From Bacillota bacterium (GTDB lineage: Bacteria > Bacillota > Limnochordia > Darwinibacteriales > Darwinibacteriaceae): a stretch of 64,000 bases of DNA. This document shows positions 19,487 to 27,638 of the stretch, piece after piece (within the stretch, counting starts at the first letter, position 1; every line of letters begins with the position of its first letter). The stretch spans positions 1,032-65,031 of the forward strand of contig JASGVS010000028.1 of the NCBI GenBank assembly GCA_030054835.1, in the 5' to 3' direction. Made by a program: the position numbers and the translations under genes. The notes beneath the pieces were generated by a model. That model had not been told where the DNA came from and made no database searches. It was given only the letters and a program-made list of their open reading frames with translations.

Positions 19487-20989
19487 ATGAAAGGCTTCCT
19501 GCATTCAATGGAAACAATGGGGTTAGTGGACGGCCCGGGCACACGGACCATCTTCTTCCTGCAAGGCTGTGCGCTCCAGTGCGCCTTCTGCCACAATCCC
19601 GATACCATCAAAAGGACAGGGGGCCGGGAAATAACCCCAGAAGAAGTACTGGCAATCGCGGACAGATACCGCCCCTATTACGGCGAAGAGGGGGGAGTCA
19701 CCTTTTCAGGTGGCGAACCCCTCCTTCAGGGGGCCTTCCTAGCTGAGACGTTGGAGCTTTTCAAGCAGCGCGGTTACAACACCTGCATCGACACGGCTGG
19801 ATTTGGCAGCCCCAAATACTTTCCTAAGATCTTCCCCTTGGTGGATACGCTCCTCTTGGATGTAAAGGCGTTTAACCCCGGGGCCTTCAAAGACCTGACC
19901 ACAGTGGACGGTTTTGAGAGCTACTTGCAATTCCTTTCCAACTTAGATTATTATGGCTTTAGGGGTCAGATTTGGATTCGCCACGTAATGGTGCCTGGTT
20001 TGACCGATAATGAAGAGTCCATGCAGAAACTGATCGAGGTAATCAAGCCTGTCAGGCACAGGGTGGAGAGGATTGAGATTCTCCCTTACCATACATCCGG
20101 TGTGCAGAAGTACAGGGAGTTGGGGTTGGACTATCGCTTAGAAGGGGTGGAGCCGATGGATAAGGACAAGGCAAAGGAATTTGAGATCTATGCCAACAAG
20201 CTCTTTGCCGAAATGCTGGGCCAGGACAGGCGTCAGGCCGAGCAGGAACGGCAGGAAAGATCCAGGCTCCTGCGGGAAAAGGAAGTAGCCTCTGAGCAGG
20301 AAAAAGAGGAAATAATGGAGGCCCTGAAGAAGCTGCCCCTTCTCAACGACGTGGATCCGGCAGACGTAGATCAGGTGTTGAGTGAAGTGATTCTGGCCAA
20401 CATTAAGGCAGGGGAACTGATCTTTAGGACCGGGGATGCCCCCGATTACATGTACTTGATCTTCGCAGGCCAGATGAAAATCTACGTTAACACTATGGAC
20501 GGAGAAGAACAGATCTTCTATATCTACCGGGACGGCGATTTCGTGGGTGGGCACAACATCCTCAACCAAACTCCCTACCGCTACATCGGAGAAGCGCTCA
20601 CCGAATGCAAAGTGGTAGTGATTCCTAAAGCCACCTTTGACCGCTACTTTTACAACTCCCCCGTTGTGCTCCGAAGCATCTTAACCAAGAGTTTTGAGCG
20701 GATCCGCTGGGCAGAAAGTTTAATCCAGAGGCTTGCCACCAGCAATGCTTCCATGAAAACGGCTGGGTTGCTTTTGAAACTGGTACAGAGAATCGGTGTT
20801 GAAACGGAAGAGGGAATTAGGCTGGAACTCTCCATGAACCGGGAGGAGTTGGGTAACTACTCCGGCCTGCGCCGGGAGACGATCACCAGAAAGCTGGGCG
20901 AGTTCAAAGAGCTCGGTTACATCGAACTGGTGGGCAACAAAGTGATAATTGTCAAAGACTTGGCAGCGCTGGAAGGATATGTGCTGTAA
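19487..20989 (+). CDS. pflA: PFL-activating enzyme (radical SAM) fused to a Crp/Fnr-family cNMP-binding + HTH regulator
   Basis: 500 aa. CALQCAFCHN (CxxxCxxC) and GGVTFSGGEP in the first ~245 aa. A charged linker follows, then a Crp-like beta-barrel (LFRTGDAPDYMYLIFAGQMKIYV) and HTH (REELGNYSGLRRETITRKLGEFKELGYIEL). Confidence 0.85.
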   Translation: MKGFLHSMETMGLVDGPGTRTIFFLQGCALQCAFCHNPDTIKRTGGREITPEEVLAIADRYRPYYGEEGGVTFSGGEPLLQGAFLAETLELFKQRGYNTCIDTAGFGSPKYFPKIFPLVDTLLLDVKAFNPGAFKDLTTVDGFESYLQFLSNLDYYGFRGQIWIRHVMVPGLTDNEESMQKLIEVIKPVRHRVERIEILPYHTSGVQKYRELGLDYRLEGVEPMDKDKAKEFEIYANKLFAEMLGQDRRQAEQERQERSRLLREKEVASEQEKEEIMEALKKLPLLNDVDPADVDQVLSEVILANIKAGELIFRTGDAPDYMYLIFAGQMKIYVNTMDGEEQIFYIYRDGDFVGGHNILNQTPYRYIGEALTECKVVVIPKATFDRYFYNSPVVLRSILTKSFERIRWAESLIQRLATSNASMKTAGLLLKLVQRIGVETEEGIRLELSMNREELGNYSGLRRETITRKLGEFKELGYIELVGNKVIIVKDLAALEGYVL

Positions 20990-21004
20990 AGGAACTGGCT
21001 TCGG

Positions 21005-21032
21005 GCCCGGGGTTTAGACCCCGGGCTTTTTT
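21005..21032 (+). terminator. Rho-independent terminator of the pfl operon
   Basis: GCCCGGGG-TTTAGA-CCCCGGGC followed by TTTTTT. Confidence 0.85.
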
Positions 21033-21151
21033 GTCTGCCTGGACCGGAACAGGAAAGGGCAAGTTGCCGTGGAACTATAGTGTATAATAACTAGTACGGA
21101 AAGGGAGCGGTAAAACCGTTCCTTGTGATAAGGAAAAGGATTGGAAACGGG

Positions 21152-23779
21152 ATGAAAAAGCTTGTCGTTGGCATCTTAGCCCATGTGGACGCGGGTAAGA
21201 CAACTCTCGCCGAAAGCATGCTTTACTTGAGCGGAAAAATCAAAGAACTGGGCCGGGTCGATCATAAAGACGCCCATTTAGATACCCACGCCCTGGAGCG
21301 GGAACGGGGAATAACCATCTTCGCAGAACAGGCCCTTTTCCAAGTGGCGGACACCGAAATCACCCTCCTGGACACACCTGGTCATGTGGACTTTTCGGCC
21401 GAGATGGAAAGGACGCTCCATGTGTTAGACTACGCCGTTTTAGTGATCAGCGGCGTGGACGGGGTTCAGGCCCACACCAAAACGTTGTGGCGCCTCTTGG
21501 AACTTTACAGCATCCCCGTGTTCATTTTCGTGAACAAAATGGATCGGTTCGGTACCGATAGGCAGAGACTCCTAAGTGAACTCAGAAGCCAACTGCACCC
21601 AAGCTGCGTTGAGTTCAGCCCAGAGCGCACGTACCAGTTCCTAGAAGAGCTGGCCGGTTGCGATCTGGAACTGATGGAGCATTTTTTCCAACACCATACC
21701 ATCGAAACTGATCAGATCAGCCAAGCGGTGGGGGAGCGTAGGCTCTTTCCCTGCTTTTATGGTTCAGCCCTAACCCTGGCCGGGGTGGAAGAATTCCTCA
21801 ATGGCCTAGTAACATACGCTGCCCCGCCAACCTATCCCAACGAGTTTGGGGCAGAAGTTTTCAAGGTTTCCCGGGATGAACAGGGTAACCGCCTCACCCA
21901 CCTGAAAATTGTGGGGGGCAGTCTGCGGGTACGGGATGCCCTGCAGGGTGAAGACTGGGAAGAGAAGGTGAACGAAATCCGCCTTTATTCCGGGCAGAGA
22001 TACACCACTGTAAATGAGGTGGGACCAGGTTCGGTCTGTGCAGTAACGGGATTATCCCAGGCCAAACCCGGTGAGGGAATAGGCATCGGTACAGGCAGCG
22101 GGGCATCGTTTTTAGAGCCTGTCCTTTCCTACCAGCTCGTTCTGCCCGATGGAACCAATCCCCTAGAAATCCTACCCAAGCTGCGCGAGTTGGAAGAAGA
22201 ACAGCCAGAGCTTCACCTTGTTTGGAACGAAGCTCTCCAGGAGATCCAGGCCCAGCTCATGGGGGAAGTGCAGCTGGAAATTTTGGAGAGCCTGATCGCG
22301 AGCCGTTTTGGCTTAAATGTGCGCTTTGGCGCTGGAAAAATCCTTTACAGAGAAACAATCGCAAGTAGAGTGGAAGGCGTAGGGCACTACGAGCCGCTGC
22401 GGCATTATGCGGAGGTGCAGCTCCTGCTTACGCCCGGCGAGCCCGGTAGTGGGCTTAAGTTCGACTCTATAGTGAGTGAAGATGTCTTGGCCGGCAATTG
22501 GCAGCGTTTAATCTTGACCCACCTCCAGGAAAAAACCCACCTTGGCGTTTTAACGGGCTCGCCCATAACTGATATGACAATAACGTTGGTAGGAGGCAGA
22601 GCGAGTCTCAGCCATACCCAGGGCGGCGACTTCCGCCAGGCAACCTACCGGGCAGTACGCCAGGGCTTAAAGGAAGCCAAGTCCGTTCTGCTCGAACCCT
22701 ATTATTCCTTCCAGCTGGAAGTACCGGAGAAAATGGTTGGACGGGCCATTCACGACTTAGAGCGAATGCACGCCAGCTATCAGATCCAGGCTGCCAACGG
22801 CGAGACTTCCGTGCTGGTGGGAAGCGGTCCCGTTGTTACACTCCGCTATTACCCCCAGGAGGTAATAGCGTATACCAAGGGAACGGGCCGCATTTTCTTG
22901 AGTTTTGACGGTTACCGCCCCTGCCACAACGCAGAAGAGGTAATTGCCCAGATCGGCTACGACTCGGAGCAGGACATGGATAACCCCACAGGCTCAATCT
23001 TTTTCGCTAACGGGAGAGGTTTTTATGTGACCTGGGATAGGGTCAAAGCTTTCATGCACCTGCCCCGTTACTTAGAACCCGAGCCCGAGCGGGAACAGGA
23101 GCAGAGGCCCGTCCAGCCCAGGAGGGTGTCCAGCCGGGACCTGGATGAGATCGATTATGAGCTGCTGGAAAGAACGGTAAGTGCCAATCGGGGCAAGAAG
23201 CGGAAATGGGTATCGAAACCGAGGGACACGGAAGGGACAACCGAGCCGAGACAGCCCAAGGAAATACGCCAGAGCTATCTGCTTGTGGACGGCTATAACA
23301 TCATCCACGCCTGGCCCGAACTGAAGCAGTATGCAACGGAAAACATGGATACTGCCCGCCTGAGGCTGATCCAAGCGTTAGCCAACTACCAAGGCGTGAC
23401 CAGGCATAACGTTGTGGTCGTTTTCGATGCCCACCTTGTAGAGGGTCAGGAGGAAAAGGTAGAAGACCACCATGGCCTCAAGGTGGTATTCACCAAGGAA
23501 GCCCAAACAGCGGACCAGTATATTGAAAAAATCGCCTATGCTAACCGGGGCAAACACCTGATCACAGTAGCCACTTCGGACCACCTGCAGCAGATTATTA
23601 TTCGAGGGGCGGGCTGTGCCCTCTGGAGCGCAGAGGAACTAAGGCAGGAGTTGGCTAGAATCCAAGCGGAGCTCTCCCAATATTACGGCGATGGGGCACG
23701 CCCCCAAGCGGCGCCGGTGGGAGAGGCCCTTTCTCAGGACGAATTGAAAGATTTAGATGACTTGAAATCGGAGGAATAA
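21152..23779 (+). CDS. EF-G/TetM-like translational GTPase fused to a C-terminal YacP/Rae1-type NYN ribonuclease domain
   Basis: G1 AHVDAGKT, G2 RGITI, G3 DTPGH, G4 NKMD, and a ~640-aa EF-G/TetM-like body. Charged linker. The C-terminus carries LLVDGYNIIHAWPELK, VVVFDAH, FTKEAQTADQYIEK and VATSD, as in B. subtilis YacP. ATG 21152 is preferred over GTG 21125. Confidence 0.8.
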   Translation: MKKLVVGILAHVDAGKTTLAESMLYLSGKIKELGRVDHKDAHLDTHALERERGITIFAEQALFQVADTEITLLDTPGHVDFSAEMERTLHVLDYAVLVISGVDGVQAHTKTLWRLLELYSIPVFIFVNKMDRFGTDRQRLLSELRSQLHPSCVEFSPERTYQFLEELAGCDLELMEHFFQHHTIETDQISQAVGERRLFPCFYGSALTLAGVEEFLNGLVTYAAPPTYPNEFGAEVFKVSRDEQGNRLTHLKIVGGSLRVRDALQGEDWEEKVNEIRLYSGQRYTTVNEVGPGSVCAVTGLSQAKPGEGIGIGTGSGASFLEPVLSYQLVLPDGTNPLEILPKLRELEEEQPELHLVWNEALQEIQAQLMGEVQLEILESLIASRFGLNVRFGAGKILYRETIASRVEGVGHYEPLRHYAEVQLLLTPGEPGSGLKFDSIVSEDVLAGNWQRLILTHLQEKTHLGVLTGSPITDMTITLVGGRASLSHTQGGDFRQATYRAVRQGLKEAKSVLLEPYYSFQLEVPEKMVGRAIHDLERMHASYQIQAANGETSVLVGSGPVVTLRYYPQEVIAYTKGTGRIFLSFDGYRPCHNAEEVIAQIGYDSEQDMDNPTGSIFFANGRGFYVTWDRVKAFMHLPRYLEPEPEREQEQRPVQPRRVSSRDLDEIDYELLERTVSANRGKKRKWVSKPRDTEGTTEPRQPKEIRQSYLLVDGYNIIHAWPELKQYATENMDTARLRLIQALANYQGVTRHNVVVVFDAHLVEGQEEKVEDHHGLKVVFTKEAQTADQYIEKIAYANRGKHLITVATSDHLQQIIIRGAGCALWSAEELRQELARIQAELSQYYGDGARPQAAPVGEALSQDELKDLDDLKSEE

Positions 23780-23892
23780 TAGAGAAGAAAAAATCGTTGG
23801 AATGCCCCCTTTTAAGAGGAATTTCAGTTGTTATTGAAGAAGTTGTAAAGGAATCTTGACTACTTCGTAAATACCAACAAGGGGGTTTGACC

Positions 23893-24927
23893 GTGACTGT
23901 ACTCTGCCCATACGGAACGCACAGGGTGATTGAACCAGTTGGGGCCCTGCCCCAAGGCGCGCTGCGCTTGGATAATAGGATGGAGAGTTACCCAAATGAG
24001 CTGCTGCTTGATGTGGAGACGCTGAATATTGACTCAGCCAGCTTCACCCAAATTAGGCAGGAGGCCGGGGACGACCCAGCCAGGATCGGGGAAATTATGA
24101 TGGAGATCGTCCGCACCAGGGGTAAACACCATAACCCTGTCACCGGATCCGGGGGCATGTTTATCGGCACGGTCAAGGAAATTGGCAAAGATCTGCAGGA
24201 GCGAACCGATCTACAGATCGGCGACCGCATCGCTTCTCTAGTTTCTTTGACGTTAACTCCACTTGTAATCGATAAGGTCAAGGCAATTGATCTGGAGACT
24301 GCCCAGGTGGACATTGATGGGCAGGCCATTCTCTTTGAGTCAGGCATTTACGCCGTACTGCCAGAAGATCTGCCGCAGAAACTGGCCTTGGCTGCCTTAG
24401 ATGTGGCAGGCGCACCTGCCCAAACAGCTAAACTTGTGAAGCCCGGTGATACCGTCTTGATTGTGGGAGCAGGCGGTAAGTCGGGCTGTTTATGTTTACA
24501 TGAGGCCCGCAAGCGGGCTGGTGTTTCTGGTACCGTGATCGCCATGGATTTTGGCGAAGCTGCCGTAGGAAGAATCAAGAAGCTTGAACTGGCTGATATC
24601 GTCCTAAATGCAGACGCTACCAAGCCGGTGGACTGCCTCGCCCTGCTGCAGGAGGCCAGCGGCAAATTGGCCGATCTCACCATTAACTGCGTAAACATAC
24701 CCAATACTGAAATGACGTCCATACTATGCACCCGGGATGGGGGCATAGTTTATTTTTTCAGTATGGCTACCAGTTTTACCGCAGCTGCCTTAGGAGCGGA
24801 AGGGGTGGGCAAGGACGTGAACATGCTGATCGGCAACGGTTATACCAAGGATCACGCCAAGATTACCCTGCAGGTTCTGCGGGAAAACCCCAAGCTGCGG
24901 CAGTTGTTTGAGGAGATTTACGTTTAG
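23893..24927 (+). CDS. kdd: L-erythro-3,5-diaminohexanoate dehydrogenase
   Basis: ~345 aa with CPYGTHRVIEP...LPQGALRLD N-terminus and GAGGKSG Rossmann motif. Lies in the lysine fermentation operon. Start is GTG 23893 or TTG 23887. Confidence 0.8.
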   Translation: MTVLCPYGTHRVIEPVGALPQGALRLDNRMESYPNELLLDVETLNIDSASFTQIRQEAGDDPARIGEIMMEIVRTRGKHHNPVTGSGGMFIGTVKEIGKDLQERTDLQIGDRIASLVSLTLTPLVIDKVKAIDLETAQVDIDGQAILFESGIYAVLPEDLPQKLALAALDVAGAPAQTAKLVKPGDTVLIVGAGGKSGCLCLHEARKRAGVSGTVIAMDFGEAAVGRIKKLELADIVLNADATKPVDCLALLQEASGKLADLTINCVNIPNTEMTSILCTRDGGIVYFFSMATSFTAAALGAEGVGKDVNMLIGNGYTKDHAKITLQVLRENPKLRQLFEEIYV

Positions 24928-24931
24928 CAGA

Positions 24932-26023
24932 ATGGCTGGGAAATGGGGATCTGCGGTGCTTGCTCAGGACTTGGCAAATCGGTTCCGGTCCGTCTCCATC
25001 ATTGGACTGGGTAAGAATACGGGGAAAACCTTTACATTCAATTACCTGCTGCGGGAGAGCAGGCGGCTGGGGCTATCCACCGCCATCACCTCCATCGGCC
25101 TGGACGGGGAGGAACGGGACACCATCACTGGCCGCGCCAAACCCCAGGTTGTAGTCTATCCGGGCCAGATCGTGCTGACTGCGAGCTCGCTCTTGACGGC
25201 GAGCAGTTTGGACTATGAAGTCCTTGCAGCTACAGGCATCGCATCGCGCCTTGGCGAGATTATTATTGTGCGCGCCATGGGCTTGGGACGGGTTGTGTTG
25301 GCGGGTCCCAGCAACCGCAGTGAGCTGGAACAGCTCCAAGAAAAGCTCGAACCTTTCCCTCACGATCTCCTGCTGGTGGATGGAGCCTTTGACCGGCGCT
25401 CCCTCAGCGCCCCCGCTGCCACTGACACCACCATCTTAGCGGTGGGTACCGAAGCGGCCTGGGATCGAGAGGATTTGCTAGGGCGCCTTAAGCTCCAGTG
25501 GCAGCTGCTGACCCTCTCTGCCTTGGACAACCAGCAGCTGCTTAGTTCCATAGAGACGATTCCAAACGATGCCAAGCTTGTTGTTTTCTGCGGTAACACT
25601 CCGCAGCATATAATCTACCACAGCGACTCTCCGGGGACAGGTGGGTCTTGGCCGACATACACTGAACAGGGTATCTATACCATCTTTGTACCCGGCATGC
25701 TTACCGATGGGCTGTTAGCCCAGGTGCTGCCGAAAAACGTGCCGACAAGTCTGACCCTACTTGTCCCCGACGCTACCCATCTTTTTTTAAGCAGGCGCAG
25801 TCTAGACATTCTTACCCATCGGGGTGTTTCCCTCAAGGTTCTCAGACAAGTGCACATCAGTGCAGTAACCGTCAACCCGTACAGCAGTCGTTTTGGCTGC
25901 GCCGAGCCCCTGAGCCTCTTGCAGGATGTTGGCCGAGTAGTGGAACCCGTCCCCTGCTATGATCTAAACCTGGGGCTCCGCTATGTGGCGAAGGAGGATG
26001 CCGATGCAGTTTCTCACCGCTGA
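24932..26023 (+). CDS. Putative lysine 5,6-aminomutase reactivase subunit (KamB-like)
   Basis: ~360 aa with a P-loop-like GLGKNTGKT. Sits between kdd and the MutS-like ATPase directly upstream of kamDE. Start is uncertain (ATG 24932 or GTG 24956). Confidence 0.5.
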   Translation: MAGKWGSAVLAQDLANRFRSVSIIGLGKNTGKTFTFNYLLRESRRLGLSTAITSIGLDGEERDTITGRAKPQVVVYPGQIVLTASSLLTASSLDYEVLAATGIASRLGEIIIVRAMGLGRVVLAGPSNRSELEQLQEKLEPFPHDLLLVDGAFDRRSLSAPAATDTTILAVGTEAAWDREDLLGRLKLQWQLLTLSALDNQQLLSSIETIPNDAKLVVFCGNTPQHIIYHSDSPGTGGSWPTYTEQGIYTIFVPGMLTDGLLAQVLPKNVPTSLTLLVPDATHLFLSRRSLDILTHRGVSLKVLRQVHISAVTVNPYSSRFGCAEPLSLLQDVGRVVEPVPCYDLNLGLRYVAKEDADAVSHR

Positions 26024-27638
26024 TACCCGCGGGCAGTTGGGTTTCGGAGAAATATGGTCTAGAATCAAGCCGGTCTCAGCTTTGGGCAGATCCCTGCACC
26101 GTCAGGCTGAGGCGTTTTTGCCCGCCCAAAAAGGTCAGCTGGTTGAGGAATGGGAGAGATTGGCGCTCATCTCCGCCGTTTTACGGGAAAACCCCAAGGC
26201 TTGTGTGGGACTAAAGACGCTTTTGAGCCACGTACCGGATGTAACGGACTGCATAAACCGCAGTCTGACCGATTCCACCCTATCCGATGCGGATTTTTAT
26301 AGCATAAAAAAACTCCTACGTGTCGCCCGAGATATCAAAGGAGAACTCGCCCGCCTAGGTTGGGGGGGCGTTCTTCCCGCGCCTTTGGATGTCTGTCCAG
26401 AAGTACTTGACGCCTTAAGTGTGGGGCAGGGGGACTCGGAGAGTTTCTATCTGGCAGACGCCTACCACGAGAAGCTGGCGGAGATCCGGAGCAAGCGCTT
26501 CGCTTTGGAAGATAAGCTCACTCAAAGGCGCAAGCAGGTGGAAGACCATGTTTTTCAGGCAGTAGGTCGCGTTTTCTCCACAGAAGATGAGCTGGCCGTG
26601 AGCGTATCTGACCAGGAAACAATTGCTGTGCTAGAAAATATTCCTCAGCTGGTACGGTCGGAAGAAACCCCAGACTGCGTCAAATTCCGCCTCAGACTGG
26701 ACGAATCAGCCCGGGAGCTCCAGCGTGAGCTGCGGGCTGTTCGGGCTGAAGAAGAACAGCGCAAAGCCAGGGTGAGGGAAAGGCTGACGGGAGTAATTGC
26801 AGAGCAGGAGGAGCGCCTCAGAAAAATCCTCTCCATCCTTGGGTTTTTGGACTTCCTCCTGGCCAAAGCTGAGTTTTGTGCTTCTTGTGGGGGAGTGAAA
26901 CCCAATCTGCGGGACGATGGGTTTGTCTCCATCTGCCAGGGCCGTCACCTTCTCTTAGAAGAAGACGTGACCGGGAGGGGCCTAGCTTACACCCCCATTG
27001 ACCTAGAACTTAAGAGGGGAGTCACTCTGATCACCGGGCCTAACATGGGCGGTAAAACTGCCTGCTTGGAAACGGTTGGGCTGCTCCTGGCCATGGCCCA
27101 GTTCGGTCTTTTGGTGCCGGCCGAGAAACTGGAGTTCAGTCCCCGGACTTTTATTGCGGCGCGGTTGACCGCGGCCGATAACCCGAAGGGTCTGAGCAGT
27201 TTTGCCGGGGAGATCGCCTTTATTCGGGAAGTTGTAAGGGTAAGCGACCAGCCTGGGCTTATTCTCCTGGATGAGATTGCCCACGGTACAAATCCCACCG
27301 AGGGGGCGGCCATTGCCCAAGCTGTATTGGAAAGGCTGAACGGCCAGCCACCTATTACCCTGGTTACTACCCACTACCCCGCCCTAGCCCAGCTGGAGGG
27401 GATGGGACAGCTGCGCATCCGGGGCTTGGATCATGCCCGTTTGGCAGAGATGTGGTCTGAGGATACTGAGCTGGATTTGGAGCTTTTCCACCAGGCTATG
27501 GATTACCGTCTGGAGCCTGTTAAGGAGCCGCATACACTGAAGGGCGATGTTGTTCATTTGGCAGAAGCATTGGGTTTAGATGAAAAAATAATCCTCCGGG
27601 CGCAGGAGTTAGTGAAAAGGGGGGCTGAGCATGGTTAA
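26004..27638 (+). CDS. MutS-domain-V ATPase, putative lysine 5,6-aminomutase reactivase ATPase (KamC-like)
   Basis: Walker A GPNMGGKT and Walker B LILLDEIAHGTNPTEG of the MutS ABC ATPase core. No mismatch-binding or Smr domain is evident. Overlaps the neighbouring genes on both sides. Confidence 0.6.
   Translation: MQFLTADTRGQLGFGEIWSRIKPVSALGRSLHRQAEAFLPAQKGQLVEEWERLALISAVLRENPKACVGLKTLLSHVPDVTDCINRSLTDSTLSDADFYSIKKLLRVARDIKGELARLGWGGVLPAPLDVCPEVLDALSVGQGDSESFYLADAYHEKLAEIRSKRFALEDKLTQRRKQVEDHVFQAVGRVFSTEDELAVSVSDQETIAVLENIPQLVRSEETPDCVKFRLRLDESARELQRELRAVRAEEEQRKARVRERLTGVIAEQEERLRKILSILGFLDFLLAKAEFCASCGGVKPNLRDDGFVSICQGRHLLLEEDVTGRGLAYTPIDLELKRGVTLITGPNMGGKTACLETVGLLLAMAQFGLLVPAEKLEFSPRTFIAARLTAADNPKGLSSFAGEIAFIREVVRVSDQPGLILLDEIAHGTNPTEGAAIAQAVLERLNGQPPITLVTTHYPALAQLEGMGQLRIRGLDHARLAEMWSEDTELDLELFHQAMDYRLEPVKEPHTLKGDVVHLAEALGLDEKIILRAQELVKRGAEHG

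What the first reader, a model, noticed from the sequence alone, without database searches (positions are those of the whole stretch)
21152..23779. Translational GTPase (EF-G/TetM-like) covalently fused to a Rae1/YacP-type NYN endoribonuclease
SEEN:
- One uninterrupted ORF of ~875 aa.
- The first ~640 aa carry G1-G4 motifs of translational GTPases (AHVDAGKT, RGITI, DTPGH, NKMD). They are colinear with the five-domain EF-G/TetM body.
- A ~70-aa Glu/Pro/Arg/Lys-rich linker follows (EPEPEREQEQRPVQPRR...GKKRKW...).
- From about nt 23270 there is a ~170-aa domain with the ordered motifs LLVDGYNIIHAWPELK, VVVFDAH, FTKEAQTADQYIEK and VATSD. This is the same order of conserved acidic motifs as in B. 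subtilis YacP/Rae1.
- The gene looks monocistronic: a terminator lies at 21005-21032 and the next operon starts more than 100 nt downstream.

KNOWN:
- Rae1 is a translation-dependent endoribonuclease that has been modelled in the ribosomal A site.
- EF-G/TetM-type GTPases dock at the A site and GTPase centre.

INFERENCE:
- The fusion could be a GTPase-guided device that delivers a nuclease to (stalled?) ribosomes.
- Possible roles are mRNA surveillance, ribosome rescue, or stress- or phage-triggered translation shutdown.
- A drug-resistance role is doubtful. There is no mobile context, and the TetM domain-IV loop signature YYSPVS is not visible.
- I am not aware of an experimental description of this architecture.
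Basis: partly seen in the sequence, partly recalled or inferred. Interest (0 to 1): 0.85.

Follow-up and report, generated by a model that had tools for sequence, protein, structure and literature searches.

The report
Translational GTPase fused to Rae1 nuclease
This gene encodes a ribosome-binding GTPase (a relative of EF-G and TetM) joined by a flexible tether to a Rae1-type RNA-cutting domain; the fusion is real, is widespread in Clostridia, was catalogued in 2015 and 2017 but never tested, and probably delivers an mRNA nuclease to stalled ribosomes.

Summary
Window 21152-23779 (+) is one 875-aa ORF. It has a five-domain translational GTPase body, a disordered linker of about 70 aa, and a NYN_YacP domain aligned to the B. 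subtilis Rae1 crystal sequence (E = 2e-31).

- **Active sites:** GTPase and nuclease catalytic residues are near-invariant across 137 diverse homologs.
- **Not an artefact:** 136 of the top 150 representatives at 50% clustering share the architecture, including proteins from isolate genomes such as A. thermocellus.
- **Not new:** Atkinson 2015 (Additional file 8) and Matelska 2017 already list this fusion. I found no experimental study.
- **Not a canonical Tet protein:** it scores 411 bits against a 775-bit cut-off and lacks the TetM loop III YYSPVS. It belongs to a separate clade (100% bootstrap), sister to Tet(M/O/S) and about 29% identical to both Tet and EF-G. The clade has its own domain IV loop and a 47-aa C-terminal extension. 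NYN-less members are interspersed in it.
- **Outdated premise:** the Rae1 authors dropped the A-site docking model in 2025. Rae1 cuts about 12 nt upstream of the stalled A site and acts on collided ribosomes.

Best reading (inferred): a GTP-gated ribosome-docking module tethering an mRNA endonuclease for stall or collision rescue. Interest is moderate.

The parts
21003..21035 (+). Intrinsic terminator of the upstream pflB/pflA-fnr unit (11-bp GC-rich stem, then a T-run)
   Evidence: stem 21003-21028, 8 GC pairs; sequence
21130..21140 (+). Purine-rich candidate ribosome-binding site (AAGGAAAAGGA), about 11 nt before the ATG. A TATAAT hexamer lies at 21083-21088.
   Evidence: read directly from the sequence; neither element was scored by a tool, so weight is low
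21152..23779 (+). Complete ORF of the GTPase-NYN fusion (875 aa plus stop)
   Evidence: start supported by homolog alignment
21152..21826 (+). G domain (residues 1-225) with G1 AHVDAGKT, G2 RGITI, G3 DTPGH (catalytic His78), G4 NKMD, G5 SAL
   Evidence: Pfam GTP_EFTU 1.4e-50; motif residues kept in 122-137 of 137 sequences, most in 136-137
21827..22333 (+). Domains II and III (residues 226-394)
   Evidence: Pfam EF-G_D2 and weak EFG_III; Foldseek match to EF-G structures, E about 1e-42
22334..22681 (+). Domain IV (residues 395-510). It carries the clade-specific tip loop G-[RK]-A-H-x-K-H-T-E-G-G-D-F-R; the query reads GRASLSHTQGGDFR at residues 482-495, nt 22595-22636. This loop replaces TetM loop III YYSPVSTPADFR and EF-G SYHDVDSSEMAFK.
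   Evidence: Pfam EFG_IV; alignments; conservation
22682..22921 (+). Domain V (residues 511-590)
   Evidence: Pfam EFG_C 2.8e-15
22922..23062 (+). Clade-specific 47-aa C-terminal extension (residues 591-637; PCHN..EVI..GYD.E.D..NPTGS.FC..G.G..V.W..V..YMH). NYN-less relatives have it too; Tet(M/O/S) and EF-G do not.
   Evidence: Y603 136/137, S615 135, F617 134, G621 133, W628 124, H636 124
23063..23269 (+). Flexible linker (residues 638-706). Sequence identity is low and the model predicts disorder. It contains one conserved short helix, E-[LI]-x-x-I-[FL]-x-[RK]-T-[YF]-G, followed by a basic stretch (query residues about 666-686, nt 23147-23209).
   Evidence: pLDDT below 30 for 645-704 and helix 670-676; identity 30% to the query against 60-75% in the domains; motif and length statistics
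23270..23776 (+). Rae1/YacP-type NYN endonuclease domain (residues 707-835) plus a poorly conserved helical tail (836-875). Catalytic Asp residues are D713, D759, D788, D810.
   Evidence: Pfam NYN_YacP 4.1e-50; phmmer match to Rae1 crystal sequences 5MQ8/5MQ9, E = 2e-31; Asp residues kept in 135-136 of 137 sequences

Best explanation
The gene encodes a self-contained, ribosome-targeted mRNA endonuclease.

**Proposed mechanism.** The N-terminal 637 residues are an active translational GTPase from a clade sister to the Tet ribosomal protection proteins. Like EF-G and TetM, it should dock in the factor-binding site of the 70S ribosome, with domain IV reaching the decoding centre. A disordered tether follows: 69 aa here, with a family median of about 83 aa. 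The tether carries one conserved amphipathic helix and a basic patch, and it links the body to a catalytically intact Rae1-type NYN nuclease. I propose three steps:
1. The GTPase recognises a ribosome that is stalled, either with a vacant A site or as a collided ribosome unable to translocate.
2. Docking raises the local concentration of the NYN domain on mRNA emerging from that ribosome or lying between collided ribosomes. This is where stand-alone Rae1 cuts.
3. Cleavage makes a truncated mRNA that is handed to tmRNA/SmpB, and GTP hydrolysis releases the factor.

In short, it would be Rae1 with a built-in, nucleotide-gated docking module.

**Shown:** domain architecture; intact active sites in both halves; strong purifying selection on both halves; a disordered linker; distinctness from Tet; wide distribution in Clostridia.

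**Inferred:** ribosome binding; which ribosomal state is recognised; mRNA as the substrate; the position of the cut; coupling to tmRNA.
For: - **Both halves look functional.** GTPase G1-G5 residues are near-invariant, with catalytic His78 in 136/137 sequences. The four NYN Asp residues are kept in 135-136/137 diverse 50%-cluster representatives.
- **Folded domains are under similar selection.** They are 60-75% identical to the query and 77-87% identical among close relatives, whereas the linker is 30% and 49%. That pattern fits two working modules joined by a spacer.
- **EF-G-like fold.** The model matches EF-G structures at Foldseek E about 1e-42. The closest solved sequences are TetO and TetM (E = 1.6e-71 and 2.5e-68), then EF-G. 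All of these act in the ribosomal factor site (established knowledge).
- **The domain IV tip loop is strongly conserved** (H488 135/137, D493 136/137), which implies a specific contact at the decoding centre.
- **The NYN domain is a close Rae1 relative.** It shows 51% identity to the B. subtilis rae1 product over 125 aa and E = 2e-31 to the crystal sequence.
- **Rae1's known activity fits.** Rae1 is a translation-dependent mRNA endonuclease that cuts upstream of stalled ribosomes and feeds collided ribosomes to tmRNA.
- **The linker is disordered but always present** (24-189 aa, median 83). My own back-of-envelope estimate gives a random-coil reach of about 60 Å and a contour length up to about 250 Å. 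That would allow reach to mRNA outside the A site.
- **Housekeeping-like context.** The gene is chromosomal with no conserved partner, no mobile element and no defence signature. C. thermocellum keeps a separate EF-G alongside it.
Against: - Nothing here shows ribosome binding, GTPase activity or RNA cleavage. All functional steps are inferred by homology.
- NYN-less members are interspersed in the clade. Fusion-only monophyly has 0% bootstrap support. The GTPase therefore has a function of its own, still unknown, that does not need the nuclease, and the nuclease could be an accessory to that function.
- The geometry is untested. The factor site and the Rae1 cut site (the tail end of the stalled ribosome) lie on different faces of the 30S subunit, so cutting may occur at the entry side or on a neighbouring ribosome instead.
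- The query departs from the clade consensus in the domain IV loop (H485S, K487S).
- I could not determine whether these genomes also keep a stand-alone rae1.
Confidence: 0.5

Rival explanations
1. It is a tetracycline-type ribosomal protection protein whose resistance mechanism involves, or is supplemented by, RNase activity. This is Atkinson's 2015 suggestion.
For: - The best NCBIfam and PDB sequence matches are Tet proteins.
- The clade is sister to Tet(M/O/S), with 100% support against EF-G in my taxon sample.
- NCBI often names homologs 'TetM/TetW/TetO/TetS family'.
- A MATE-type efflux gene lies nearby in 6 of 17 loci.
Against: - It scores far below every curated Tet cut-off: 411.5 against 775, and 226-273 against 1100-1420.
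- Loop III of domain IV is functionally the most important part of Tet(M). Here it is replaced by a different, conserved motif.
- The Tet C-terminal extension is not alignable.
- Identity to Tet is only 29%, the same as to EF-G.
- The gene is chromosomal with no mobile context, whereas true tet genes sit on conjugative or mobilizable plasmids.
Confidence: 0.08
2. The nuclease targets ribosomal RNA or tRNA and not mRNA. The GTPase would dock on the ribosome so that the NYN domain can cleave rRNA or tRNA, for ribosome inactivation or turnover under stress or for rRNA maturation.
For: - NYN_YacP was originally predicted to act in rRNA/tRNA maturation, from its operon with mrnC, yacO (rlmB) and tRNA synthetase genes.
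- In one locus the fusion sits between rsmH (a 16S rRNA methyltransferase gene) and gltX.
- A NYN-less relative lies next to an rpsN paralog.
- A factor-site anchor places the tethered nuclease close to many rRNA elements.
Against: - The only experimentally defined activity of a YacP-type NYN domain is translation-dependent mRNA cleavage by Rae1.
- The fusion's NYN domain is about 50% identical to Rae1, with the same active site.
- The neighbourhood hints are single cases among 17 or more loci that share no conserved partner.
Confidence: 0.17
3. It is a loose or 'Rosetta-stone' fusion. The GTPase and a Rae1 paralog act in the same pathway or on the same ribosome population, but the covalent link serves only co-expression or stoichiometry, without GTP-gated delivery.
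For: - The NYN domain was gained or lost several times within the clade, and NYN-less forms are interspersed.
- The linker is long, disordered and variable in length, 24-189 aa.
- Neither half shows obvious remodelling relative to its stand-alone relatives.
Against: - The fusion has persisted across at least 136 clusters at 50% identity.
- The linker carries a conserved helix and basic patch that stand-alone Rae1 and the NYN-less GTPases lack. That suggests a functional connector.
- No split version with an adjacent stand-alone NYN gene was seen next to NYN-less relatives.
Confidence: 0.12
4. It is a stress- or phage-triggered toxin or defence effector that shuts down translation by cutting RNA on ribosomes.
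For: - PIN/NYN nucleases are common toxin and defence effectors (general knowledge; reviews the superfamily).
- Two 'Bacteriophage sp.' records contain the fusion.
Against: - No PADLOC model matches.
- There is no conserved neighbouring antitoxin or partner gene.
- The phage record I examined is marked UNVERIFIED and carries ordinary chromosomal genes: feoB, rsmH, gltX, glpK, cls.
- Conservation is very high and the distribution looks vertical across Clostridia.
Confidence: 0.05

Closest known systems
TetM-like / NYN_YacP fusion proteins catalogued by Atkinson 2015 (BMC Genomics, Additional file 8) and Matelska 2017 (NAR)
   Same: The domain order and the clade-specific motifs are identical. 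The query is 58-68% identical to family members. That includes about 61% to proteins of A. thermocellus strains, the species whose ATCC 27405 protein is on the 2015 list.
   Different: The query is a divergent member from an uncultured lineage; its closest relative outside its own 99% cluster is 68% identical. It has rare substitutions in the domain IV loop (H485S, K487S) and a Pro/Glu-rich first half of the linker. The family is far larger than the 'ten species' reported then.
Rae1 (YacP) of Bacillus subtilis, the ribosome-associated endoribonuclease (PDB 5MQ8/5MQ9)
   Same: It has the same NYN_YacP fold family and about 51% identity over the catalytic core. All four acidic residues and the C-terminal helix are retained. 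It probably has the same chemistry and a ribosome-linked substrate.
   Different: Rae1 is a stand-alone protein of about 170 aa encoded in the gltX-cysS-mrnC-yacO-yacP operon, and it binds ribosomes only transiently. Here the domain is covalently tethered to a translational GTPase, lies in an unrelated gene context, and is preceded by a linker motif that Rae1 lacks.
Tet(M)/Tet(O) ribosomal protection proteins
   Same: Both are five-domain EF-G-like GTPases. These are the closest solved sequences (E about 1e-70), and the clade is sister to them. The ribosomal docking site is probably the same.
   Different: Identity is 28-31%. Scores fall below the curated cut-offs. Loop III YYSPVS is replaced, the C-terminal extension is different and longer, and there is no mobile or resistance context.
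EF-G
   Same: Same overall fold (Foldseek E about 1e-42) and same G motifs. A His in the domain IV tip loop aligns with the EF-G loop His in most family members.
   Different: Identity is 29%. It scores 266.7 against the 659.4 cut-off of TIGR00484. It has a shorter G' region. It is encoded in addition to EF-G, at least in C. thermocellum.
SmrB (E. coli) and MutS2/RqcU (B. subtilis), collision-sensing nuclease or NTPase factors. These are functional analogues only.
   Same: Conceptually similar: a nuclease recruited to stalled or collided ribosomes that creates substrates for tmRNA. MutS2 likewise combines an NTPase with a nuclease-type domain in one polypeptide (established knowledge).
   Different: The folds are unrelated (SMR nuclease domains; an ABC-type ATPase in MutS2), and those factors recognise the disome interface and not the factor-binding site.

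Membership tests
Translational GTPase, EF-G/EF2 (five-domain) superfamily | G1-G5 nucleotide-binding motifs, including the catalytic His of DxxGH | tested here: met
   AHVDAGKT, RGITI, DTPGH, NKMD, SAL; His78 kept in 136/137 sequences
Translational GTPase, EF-G/EF2 (five-domain) superfamily | Domains II, III, IV and V in EF-G order and fold | tested here: met
   Pfam EF-G_D2, EFG_III (weak), EFG_IV, EFG_C; Foldseek match to EF-G structures, E about 1e-42 over about 700 columns
EF-G proper | Score at or above the curated equivalog cut-off (TIGR00484) | tested here: not met
   266.7 bits against 659.4; falls outside the EF-G clade
Tet ribosomal protection proteins (Tet(M)/Tet(O) type) | Score at or above the NCBIfam tet_protect cut-off | tested here: not met
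   411.5 against 775; Tet(M/W) 273 against 1100; Tet(M) 226 against 1420
Tet ribosomal protection proteins (Tet(M)/Tet(O) type) | Domain IV loop III (L505-YYSPVS), the element that displaces tetracycline | tested here: not met
   It aligns to RASLSHT in the query and to [RK]AH.KHT in the family. The importance of the loop is stated.
Tet ribosomal protection proteins (Tet(M)/Tet(O) type) | Placement inside the Tet clade | tested here: not met
   Separate clade with 100% bootstrap, sister to Tet(M/O/S); 29% identity. The tree is neighbour-joining with only three Tet references, so sister status is provisional.
Tet ribosomal protection proteins (Tet(M)/Tet(O) type) | Tet-type C-terminal extension with a terminal helix | tested here: inconclusive
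   Alignments to Tet stop at about residue 590. A different 47-aa extension ending in a short helix is present. Homology of the two tails was neither shown nor excluded.
Tet ribosomal protection proteins (Tet(M)/Tet(O) type) | Confers tetracycline resistance | not testable with these tools
   Needs MIC assays
Rae1/YacP NYN endoribonucleases (PF05991) | Pfam NYN_YacP at or above the gathering score | tested here: met
   170.5 bits against 24.6, covering 164 of 166 model positions
Rae1/YacP NYN endoribonucleases (PF05991) | Four active-site acidic residues (Rae1 D7, D53, D81, D104) | tested here: met
   D713, D759, D788, D810 align to them, are invariant in 62 close homologs, and are kept in 135-136 of 137 diverse sequences
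Rae1/YacP NYN endoribonucleases (PF05991) | Stand-alone protein of about 170 aa in the gltX-cysS-mrnC-yacO-yacP context | tested here: not met
   It is fused to a 637-aa GTPase. The neighbours are pfl and lysine-fermentation genes. It is therefore a Rae1-domain protein, not an orthologous stand-alone Rae1.
Rae1/YacP NYN endoribonucleases (PF05991) | Translation-dependent mRNA cleavage upstream of stalled ribosomes | not testable with these tools
   Needs biochemistry or RNA end mapping
TetM-like / NYN_YacP fusion family (Atkinson 2015, Additional file 8) | Same domain order, clade-specific domain IV loop, 47-aa extension, linker helix and NYN domain; high full-length identity to listed members | tested here: met
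   58-68% identity over 95-100% of the length to 119 clusters, including A. thermocellus strains. The motifs are visible in the published sequences and in the alignments.
Known anti-phage defence systems (PADLOC-DB) | Match to any defence-protein model | tested here: not met
   0 families at E <= 0.01

The most novel reading that the evidence does not exclude
The GTPase body, with or without the NYN domain, is a previously unrecognised translational-GTPase subfamily with a non-Tet function. It would sense ribosomes that cannot proceed, for example a collided ribosome in the rotated state that EF-G cannot translocate, or a ribosome with a vacant A site. In Clostridia this sensor has been armed with a tethered Rae1 nuclease. 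The result would be a single-polypeptide, GTP-gated bacterial 'no-go decay' machine that cuts the mRNA at the entry side of the docked ribosome and hands it to tmRNA. Because non-hydrolysable GTP analogues could lock it on ribosomes, it would also give the first structural view of how a Rae1-type nuclease engages the ribosome.
Probability: 0.3. Interest if true: 0.75.

Novelty: new member of a known kind. Interest (0 to 1): 0.45.

Why it matters
Rae1 has only just been placed in bacterial ribosome-collision rescue. How it recognises ribosomes is unknown, because the interaction is too transient to capture structurally.

A natural protein in which a Rae1 domain is permanently tethered to a factor-site GTPase is a ready-made experimental handle:
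- it could be trapped on ribosomes with GDPNP;
- it suggests which ribosomal state Rae1-type nucleases act on;
- it would show whether bacteria use a translational GTPase as a stall sensor, in the way eukaryotes use Hbs1 with Dom34.

There is also a practical annotation point. These proteins, and their NYN-less relatives, are widely labelled 'TetM/TetW/TetO/TetS family tetracycline resistance ribosomal protection protein'. They fail every defining Tet test run here. That matters for resistome surveys of gut Clostridia such as Agathobacter, Blautia and the Lachnospiraceae.

Tried and rejected
- **Reference-genome scan.** The tool chose G-domain and domain IV peptides (DTPGHVDF, EGVGHFEP) as patterns, so most of the 80 loci were ordinary EF-G genes.
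- **Stand-alone rae1 in the same genomes.** This could not be tested. The window has only one NYN_YacP gene and none of the held loci has a second.
- **Original Rae1 paper.** The EMBO J 2017 paper is not held. Catalytic residue numbers were taken from the PDB sequence alignment instead.
- **Conserved partner gene.** Rejected: nothing recurs in more than 6 of 17 loci.
- **ABC ATPase upstream.** It is an MsbA-type exporter pair, not an ABC-F translation factor.
- **'MutS-like' ORF downstream.** It is KamC of the lysine-fermentation operon, not the collision sensor MutS2.
- **Phage link.** Rejected. The one 'Bacteriophage sp.' record examined is an UNVERIFIED chromosomal fragment. The second was not examined.
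- **Plasmid link.** Rejected. The hits are mislabelled chromosome pieces or stand-alone rae1, and true tet genes are a different clade.
- **Tree building.** The first attempt timed out and was redone with numpy distances.
- **'Tightly fixed linker length'.** An early impression of 69-82 aa among close relatives did not hold family-wide, where the range is 24-189 aa.

Full report
**1.

The + strand carries one uninterrupted ORF from 21125 (GTG) or 21152 (ATG) to the TAA stop at 23777-23779.
- Homologs start MKKLV... and M1 is at least 90% conserved, so the ATG at 21152 is the real start. A purine-rich stretch lies 11 nt upstream. The protein is 875 aa.
- Pfam gives GTP_EFTU 5-223 (1.4e-50), EF-G_D2, a weak EFG_III, EFG_IV 395-510, EFG_C 512-593 and NYN_YacP 710-871 (4.1e-50).
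- The upstream terminator is real: 21003-21028 plus a T-run.
- No terminator-like site follows the stop codon, so read-through into the downstream kdd-kamB-kamC operon cannot be excluded.

**2. It is not an assembly artefact**
- All 120 best hits in the 90%-clustered database have the same Pfam architecture at 58-68% identity. They include proteins from isolate genomes such as Acetivibrio thermocellus, Desulfosporosinus, Desulfitobacterium, Cellulosilyticum and Pseudoclostridium.
- A 99%-identical copy comes from an independent assembly (P0001).
- In the exhaustive search of 50%-identity representatives, 136 of the best 150 are full-length fusions of 830 aa or more.

**3. Both halves look catalytically competent and are under comparable selection**
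- The NYN domain aligns to the B. subtilis Rae1 crystal sequences 5MQ8/5MQ9 at E = 2e-31. Rae1 D7, D53, D81 and D104 correspond to D713, D759, D788 and D810.
- These four Asp residues are invariant in 62 close homologs and kept in 135-136 of 137 diverse representatives.
- The GTPase P-loop, switch I Thr, DTPGH (His78 in 136/137), NKMD and SAL motifs are equally conserved.
- Per-domain identity to the query is 60-75% for every folded domain, 30% for the linker and 17% for the extreme C-terminal tail.
- An AlphaFold2 model has mean pLDDT 71 and pTM 0.55. The domains are confident and residues 645-704 fall below pLDDT 30. The body matches EF-G structures at Foldseek E about 1e-42.

**4. The GTPase is Tet-like but not a Tet protein**
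- The best curated model is tet_protect, but at 411.5 bits against a 775-bit cut-off. The Tet(M/W), Tet(Q), Tet(M) and Otr(A) models are all far below threshold, and so is EF-G at 266.7 against 659.4.
- The closest solved sequences are TetO (1.6e-71) and TetM (2.5e-68), ahead of EF-G at about 2e-60.
- TetM loop III of domain IV (YYSPVSTPADFR) is functionally its most important element. It aligns to RASLSHTQGGDFR in the query and to a conserved G-[RK]-A-H-x-K-H-T-E-G-G-D-F-R in the family. EF-G has GSYHDVDSSEMAFK at that position.
- Alignments to true Tet(M/O/S) genes on plasmids stop at residue ~590, at 28-31% identity.
- After domain V the family has its own conserved 47-aa extension, residues 591-637: PCHN..EVI..GYD.E.D..NPTGS.FC..G.G..V.W..V..YMH.
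- I built a neighbour-joining tree from 589 columns with 200 bootstraps. The fusion proteins plus NYN-less relatives form one clade (100%). That clade is separate from Tet(M/O/S) (100%), and the two together are separate from EF-G (100%). Mean identity of the clade to Tet and to EF-G is 29% in both cases.
- The tree uses only three Tet references and a simple method, so 'sister to Tet' is provisional. 'Not inside Tet(M/O/S)' is robust.

**5. NYN-less members exist and are interspersed**
- Neobacillus cucumis (648 aa), Intestinibacter bartlettii (668 aa), Bifidobacterium avesanii (741 aa), a Ligilactobacillus salivarius megaplasmid gene (644 aa) and several metagenomic representatives share the domain IV loop and the 47-aa extension.
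- The Neobacillus protein ends directly after the extension and the others within a few dozen residues of it.
- The three I scanned (Neobacillus, Intestinibacter, Bifidobacterium) also fail the Tet cut-offs, at 370-436 bits against 775.
- Neither 'fusion-only' nor 'NYN-less-only' is monophyletic (0% support). NYN-less proteins fall in at least three groups, some well supported internally at 84-91%.
- So the NYN domain was gained or lost more than once, and the GTPase must have a function that does not depend on it.
- No stand-alone NYN gene lies next to the NYN-less genes.

**6. The linker**
- In close relatives it is 69-82 aa. Across the whole family the median is 83 aa, the 10-90% range is 63-121 and the extremes are 24-189.
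- It is about 70% polar, charged, Pro or Gly.
- It contains one conserved element: a short helix E-[LI]-x-x-I-[FL]-x-[RK]-T-[YF]-G followed by a basic stretch. In the query this is about residues 666-686, and residues 675-706 carry a net charge of +6.
- Stand-alone Rae1 starts directly at the NYN core and the NYN-less GTPases stop before this element. It is therefore specific to the fusion and probably functional, for example as an RNA- or ribosome-contact element or a docking element. I could not test this.

**7. Context**
- Upstream lie an MsbA-type ABC exporter pair, pflB, and a pflA-Fnr fusion. Downstream lie kdd, kamB and kamC of lysine fermentation.
- Across 17 fusion loci no neighbour is conserved. 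A MATE-type efflux gene occurs in 6 and greA in 4.
- There is no PADLOC hit.
- There is no plasmid or phage context. The plasmid hits are mislabelled chromosome pieces or stand-alone rae1. The 'Bacteriophage sp.' record I examined is an UNVERIFIED chromosomal fragment.
- GC content matches the surroundings.
- C. thermocellum encodes EF-G and EF-GII in addition to this 'Tet'.

**8. Literature**

The architecture is already on record.
[quoted passage not shown] Its Additional file 8 is a FASTA of this very family.
- Matelska 2017 notes the TetM-like/NYN_YacP fusion in some Clostridia and calls its role unclear.
- Six full-text searches found no experimental work on it.

- Tetreault 2026 shows that Rae1 generates tmRNA substrates from collided ribosomes. 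That preprint also notes that no ribosome-bound Rae1 structure exists because binding is transient.

**9. Mechanism**

*Shown:* an intact translational GTPase with a conserved decoding-centre-facing loop; a disordered tether; an intact Rae1-type nuclease.

*Inferred:*
- The GTPase docks in the factor site of a ribosome that is stalled or unable to translocate.
- The tether lets the NYN domain reach mRNA outside the A site. My own rough estimate gives a coil reach of about 60 Å and a contour length up to about 250 Å for 69 aa.
- The most economical geometry places the cut at the mRNA entry side of the docked ribosome. In a disome that is the stretch between the two ribosomes, where Rae1 and SmrB are reported to cut.
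- Cleavage yields a truncated message for tmRNA, and GTP hydrolysis releases the factor.

I put this at about 0.5. The rivals are rRNA/tRNA targeting (0.17), a loose fusion without gated delivery (0.12), Tet-type protection (0.08) and a toxin or defence role (0.05).

**10. Verdict**

This is a real, correctly described feature. It is a new and divergent member of a fusion family that has been catalogued since 2015 but never characterised.

This analysis adds five points:
- The GTPase is a distinct clade and not a Tet protein.
- The clade has its own loop and extension signatures.
- NYN-less members are interspersed within it.
- The fusion-specific linker carries a conserved helix.
- The family is an order of magnitude more diverse than was reported.

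Interest is moderate: the fusion will not surprise translational-GTPase specialists, but it is a timely and tractable handle on how Rae1-type nucleases engage stalled ribosomes.

Noticed in passing
window 19487-20989 (+): One 500-aa ORF fuses a pyruvate formate-lyase activating enzyme to a Crp/Fnr-type module. The PflA part (residues 5-231) scores 246.8 on TIGR02493, above the 231.75 cut-off. The second part (residues about 305-496) has a cNMP-binding domain and an HTH_Crp_2 domain. A radical-SAM activase joined to a transcription regulator is unusual.
   Followed up: no
window 23887-27638 (+): This is a lysine-fermentation gene set: Kdd, KamB and KamC, all above the NCBIfam cut-offs. The ORF with a MutS domain V (25983-27638) is the reactivase ATPase KamC, not the ribosome-collision factor MutS2.
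   Followed up: yes
L081 15204-17813 (GenBank MT835514.1, 'UNVERIFIED: Bacteriophage sp.'): The record is a bacterial chromosomal fragment, not a phage; it carries feoB, a ZIP transporter gene, rsmH, gltX, glpK and cls. Here the GTPase-NYN fusion overlaps the end of rsmH (16S rRNA m4C1402 methyltransferase). It is followed by gltX and a small alarmone synthetase gene, which makes a translation- and stringent-response-flavoured neighbourhood. gltX also heads the B. subtilis yacP operon.
   Followed up: partly
L085 3529-5920 (Ligilactobacillus salivarius megaplasmid NZ_CP117984.1): A NYN-less member of the GTPase clade is transcribed divergently from an rpsN (S14) paralog and a 'putative metal homeostasis protein'. 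That arrangement resembles a zinc-limitation (Zur-type) alternative ribosomal-protein locus. The region is flanked by IS elements.
   Followed up: no
L002, L004, L006, L010, L013 and one further fusion locus (flanks of the fusion gene): A MATE-family efflux gene lies next to the fusion gene in 6 of 17 loci, and greA lies just downstream in 4 of 17. This is mostly in Lachnospiraceae, so it may simply reflect shared synteny.
   Followed up: partly
window 22595-22636 and 23003-23005: The query departs from otherwise strongly conserved clade residues. In the domain IV tip loop it has H485S (shared by 14 of 137 sequences) and K487S (2 of 137). In the extension it has C618F. Its decoding-centre contact may therefore differ from that of typical members.
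   Followed up: partly
P0210, P0180, P0226, P0255 (50%-cluster representatives): Some family members reach 1000-1156 aa. They have a large insertion in the G domain (P0210: GTP_EFTU spans residues 3-520) or 170-240 residues between domain V and the NYN domain. P0261 continues into an Acyl_transf_3 domain and is probably a chimeric gene call.
   Followed up: partly
database annotations of homologs: Many family members are named 'TetM/TetW/TetO/TetS family tetracycline resistance ribosomal protection protein' in public records, although they fall far below the curated Tet cut-offs. This is a likely source of false positives in resistome surveys.
   Followed up: partly
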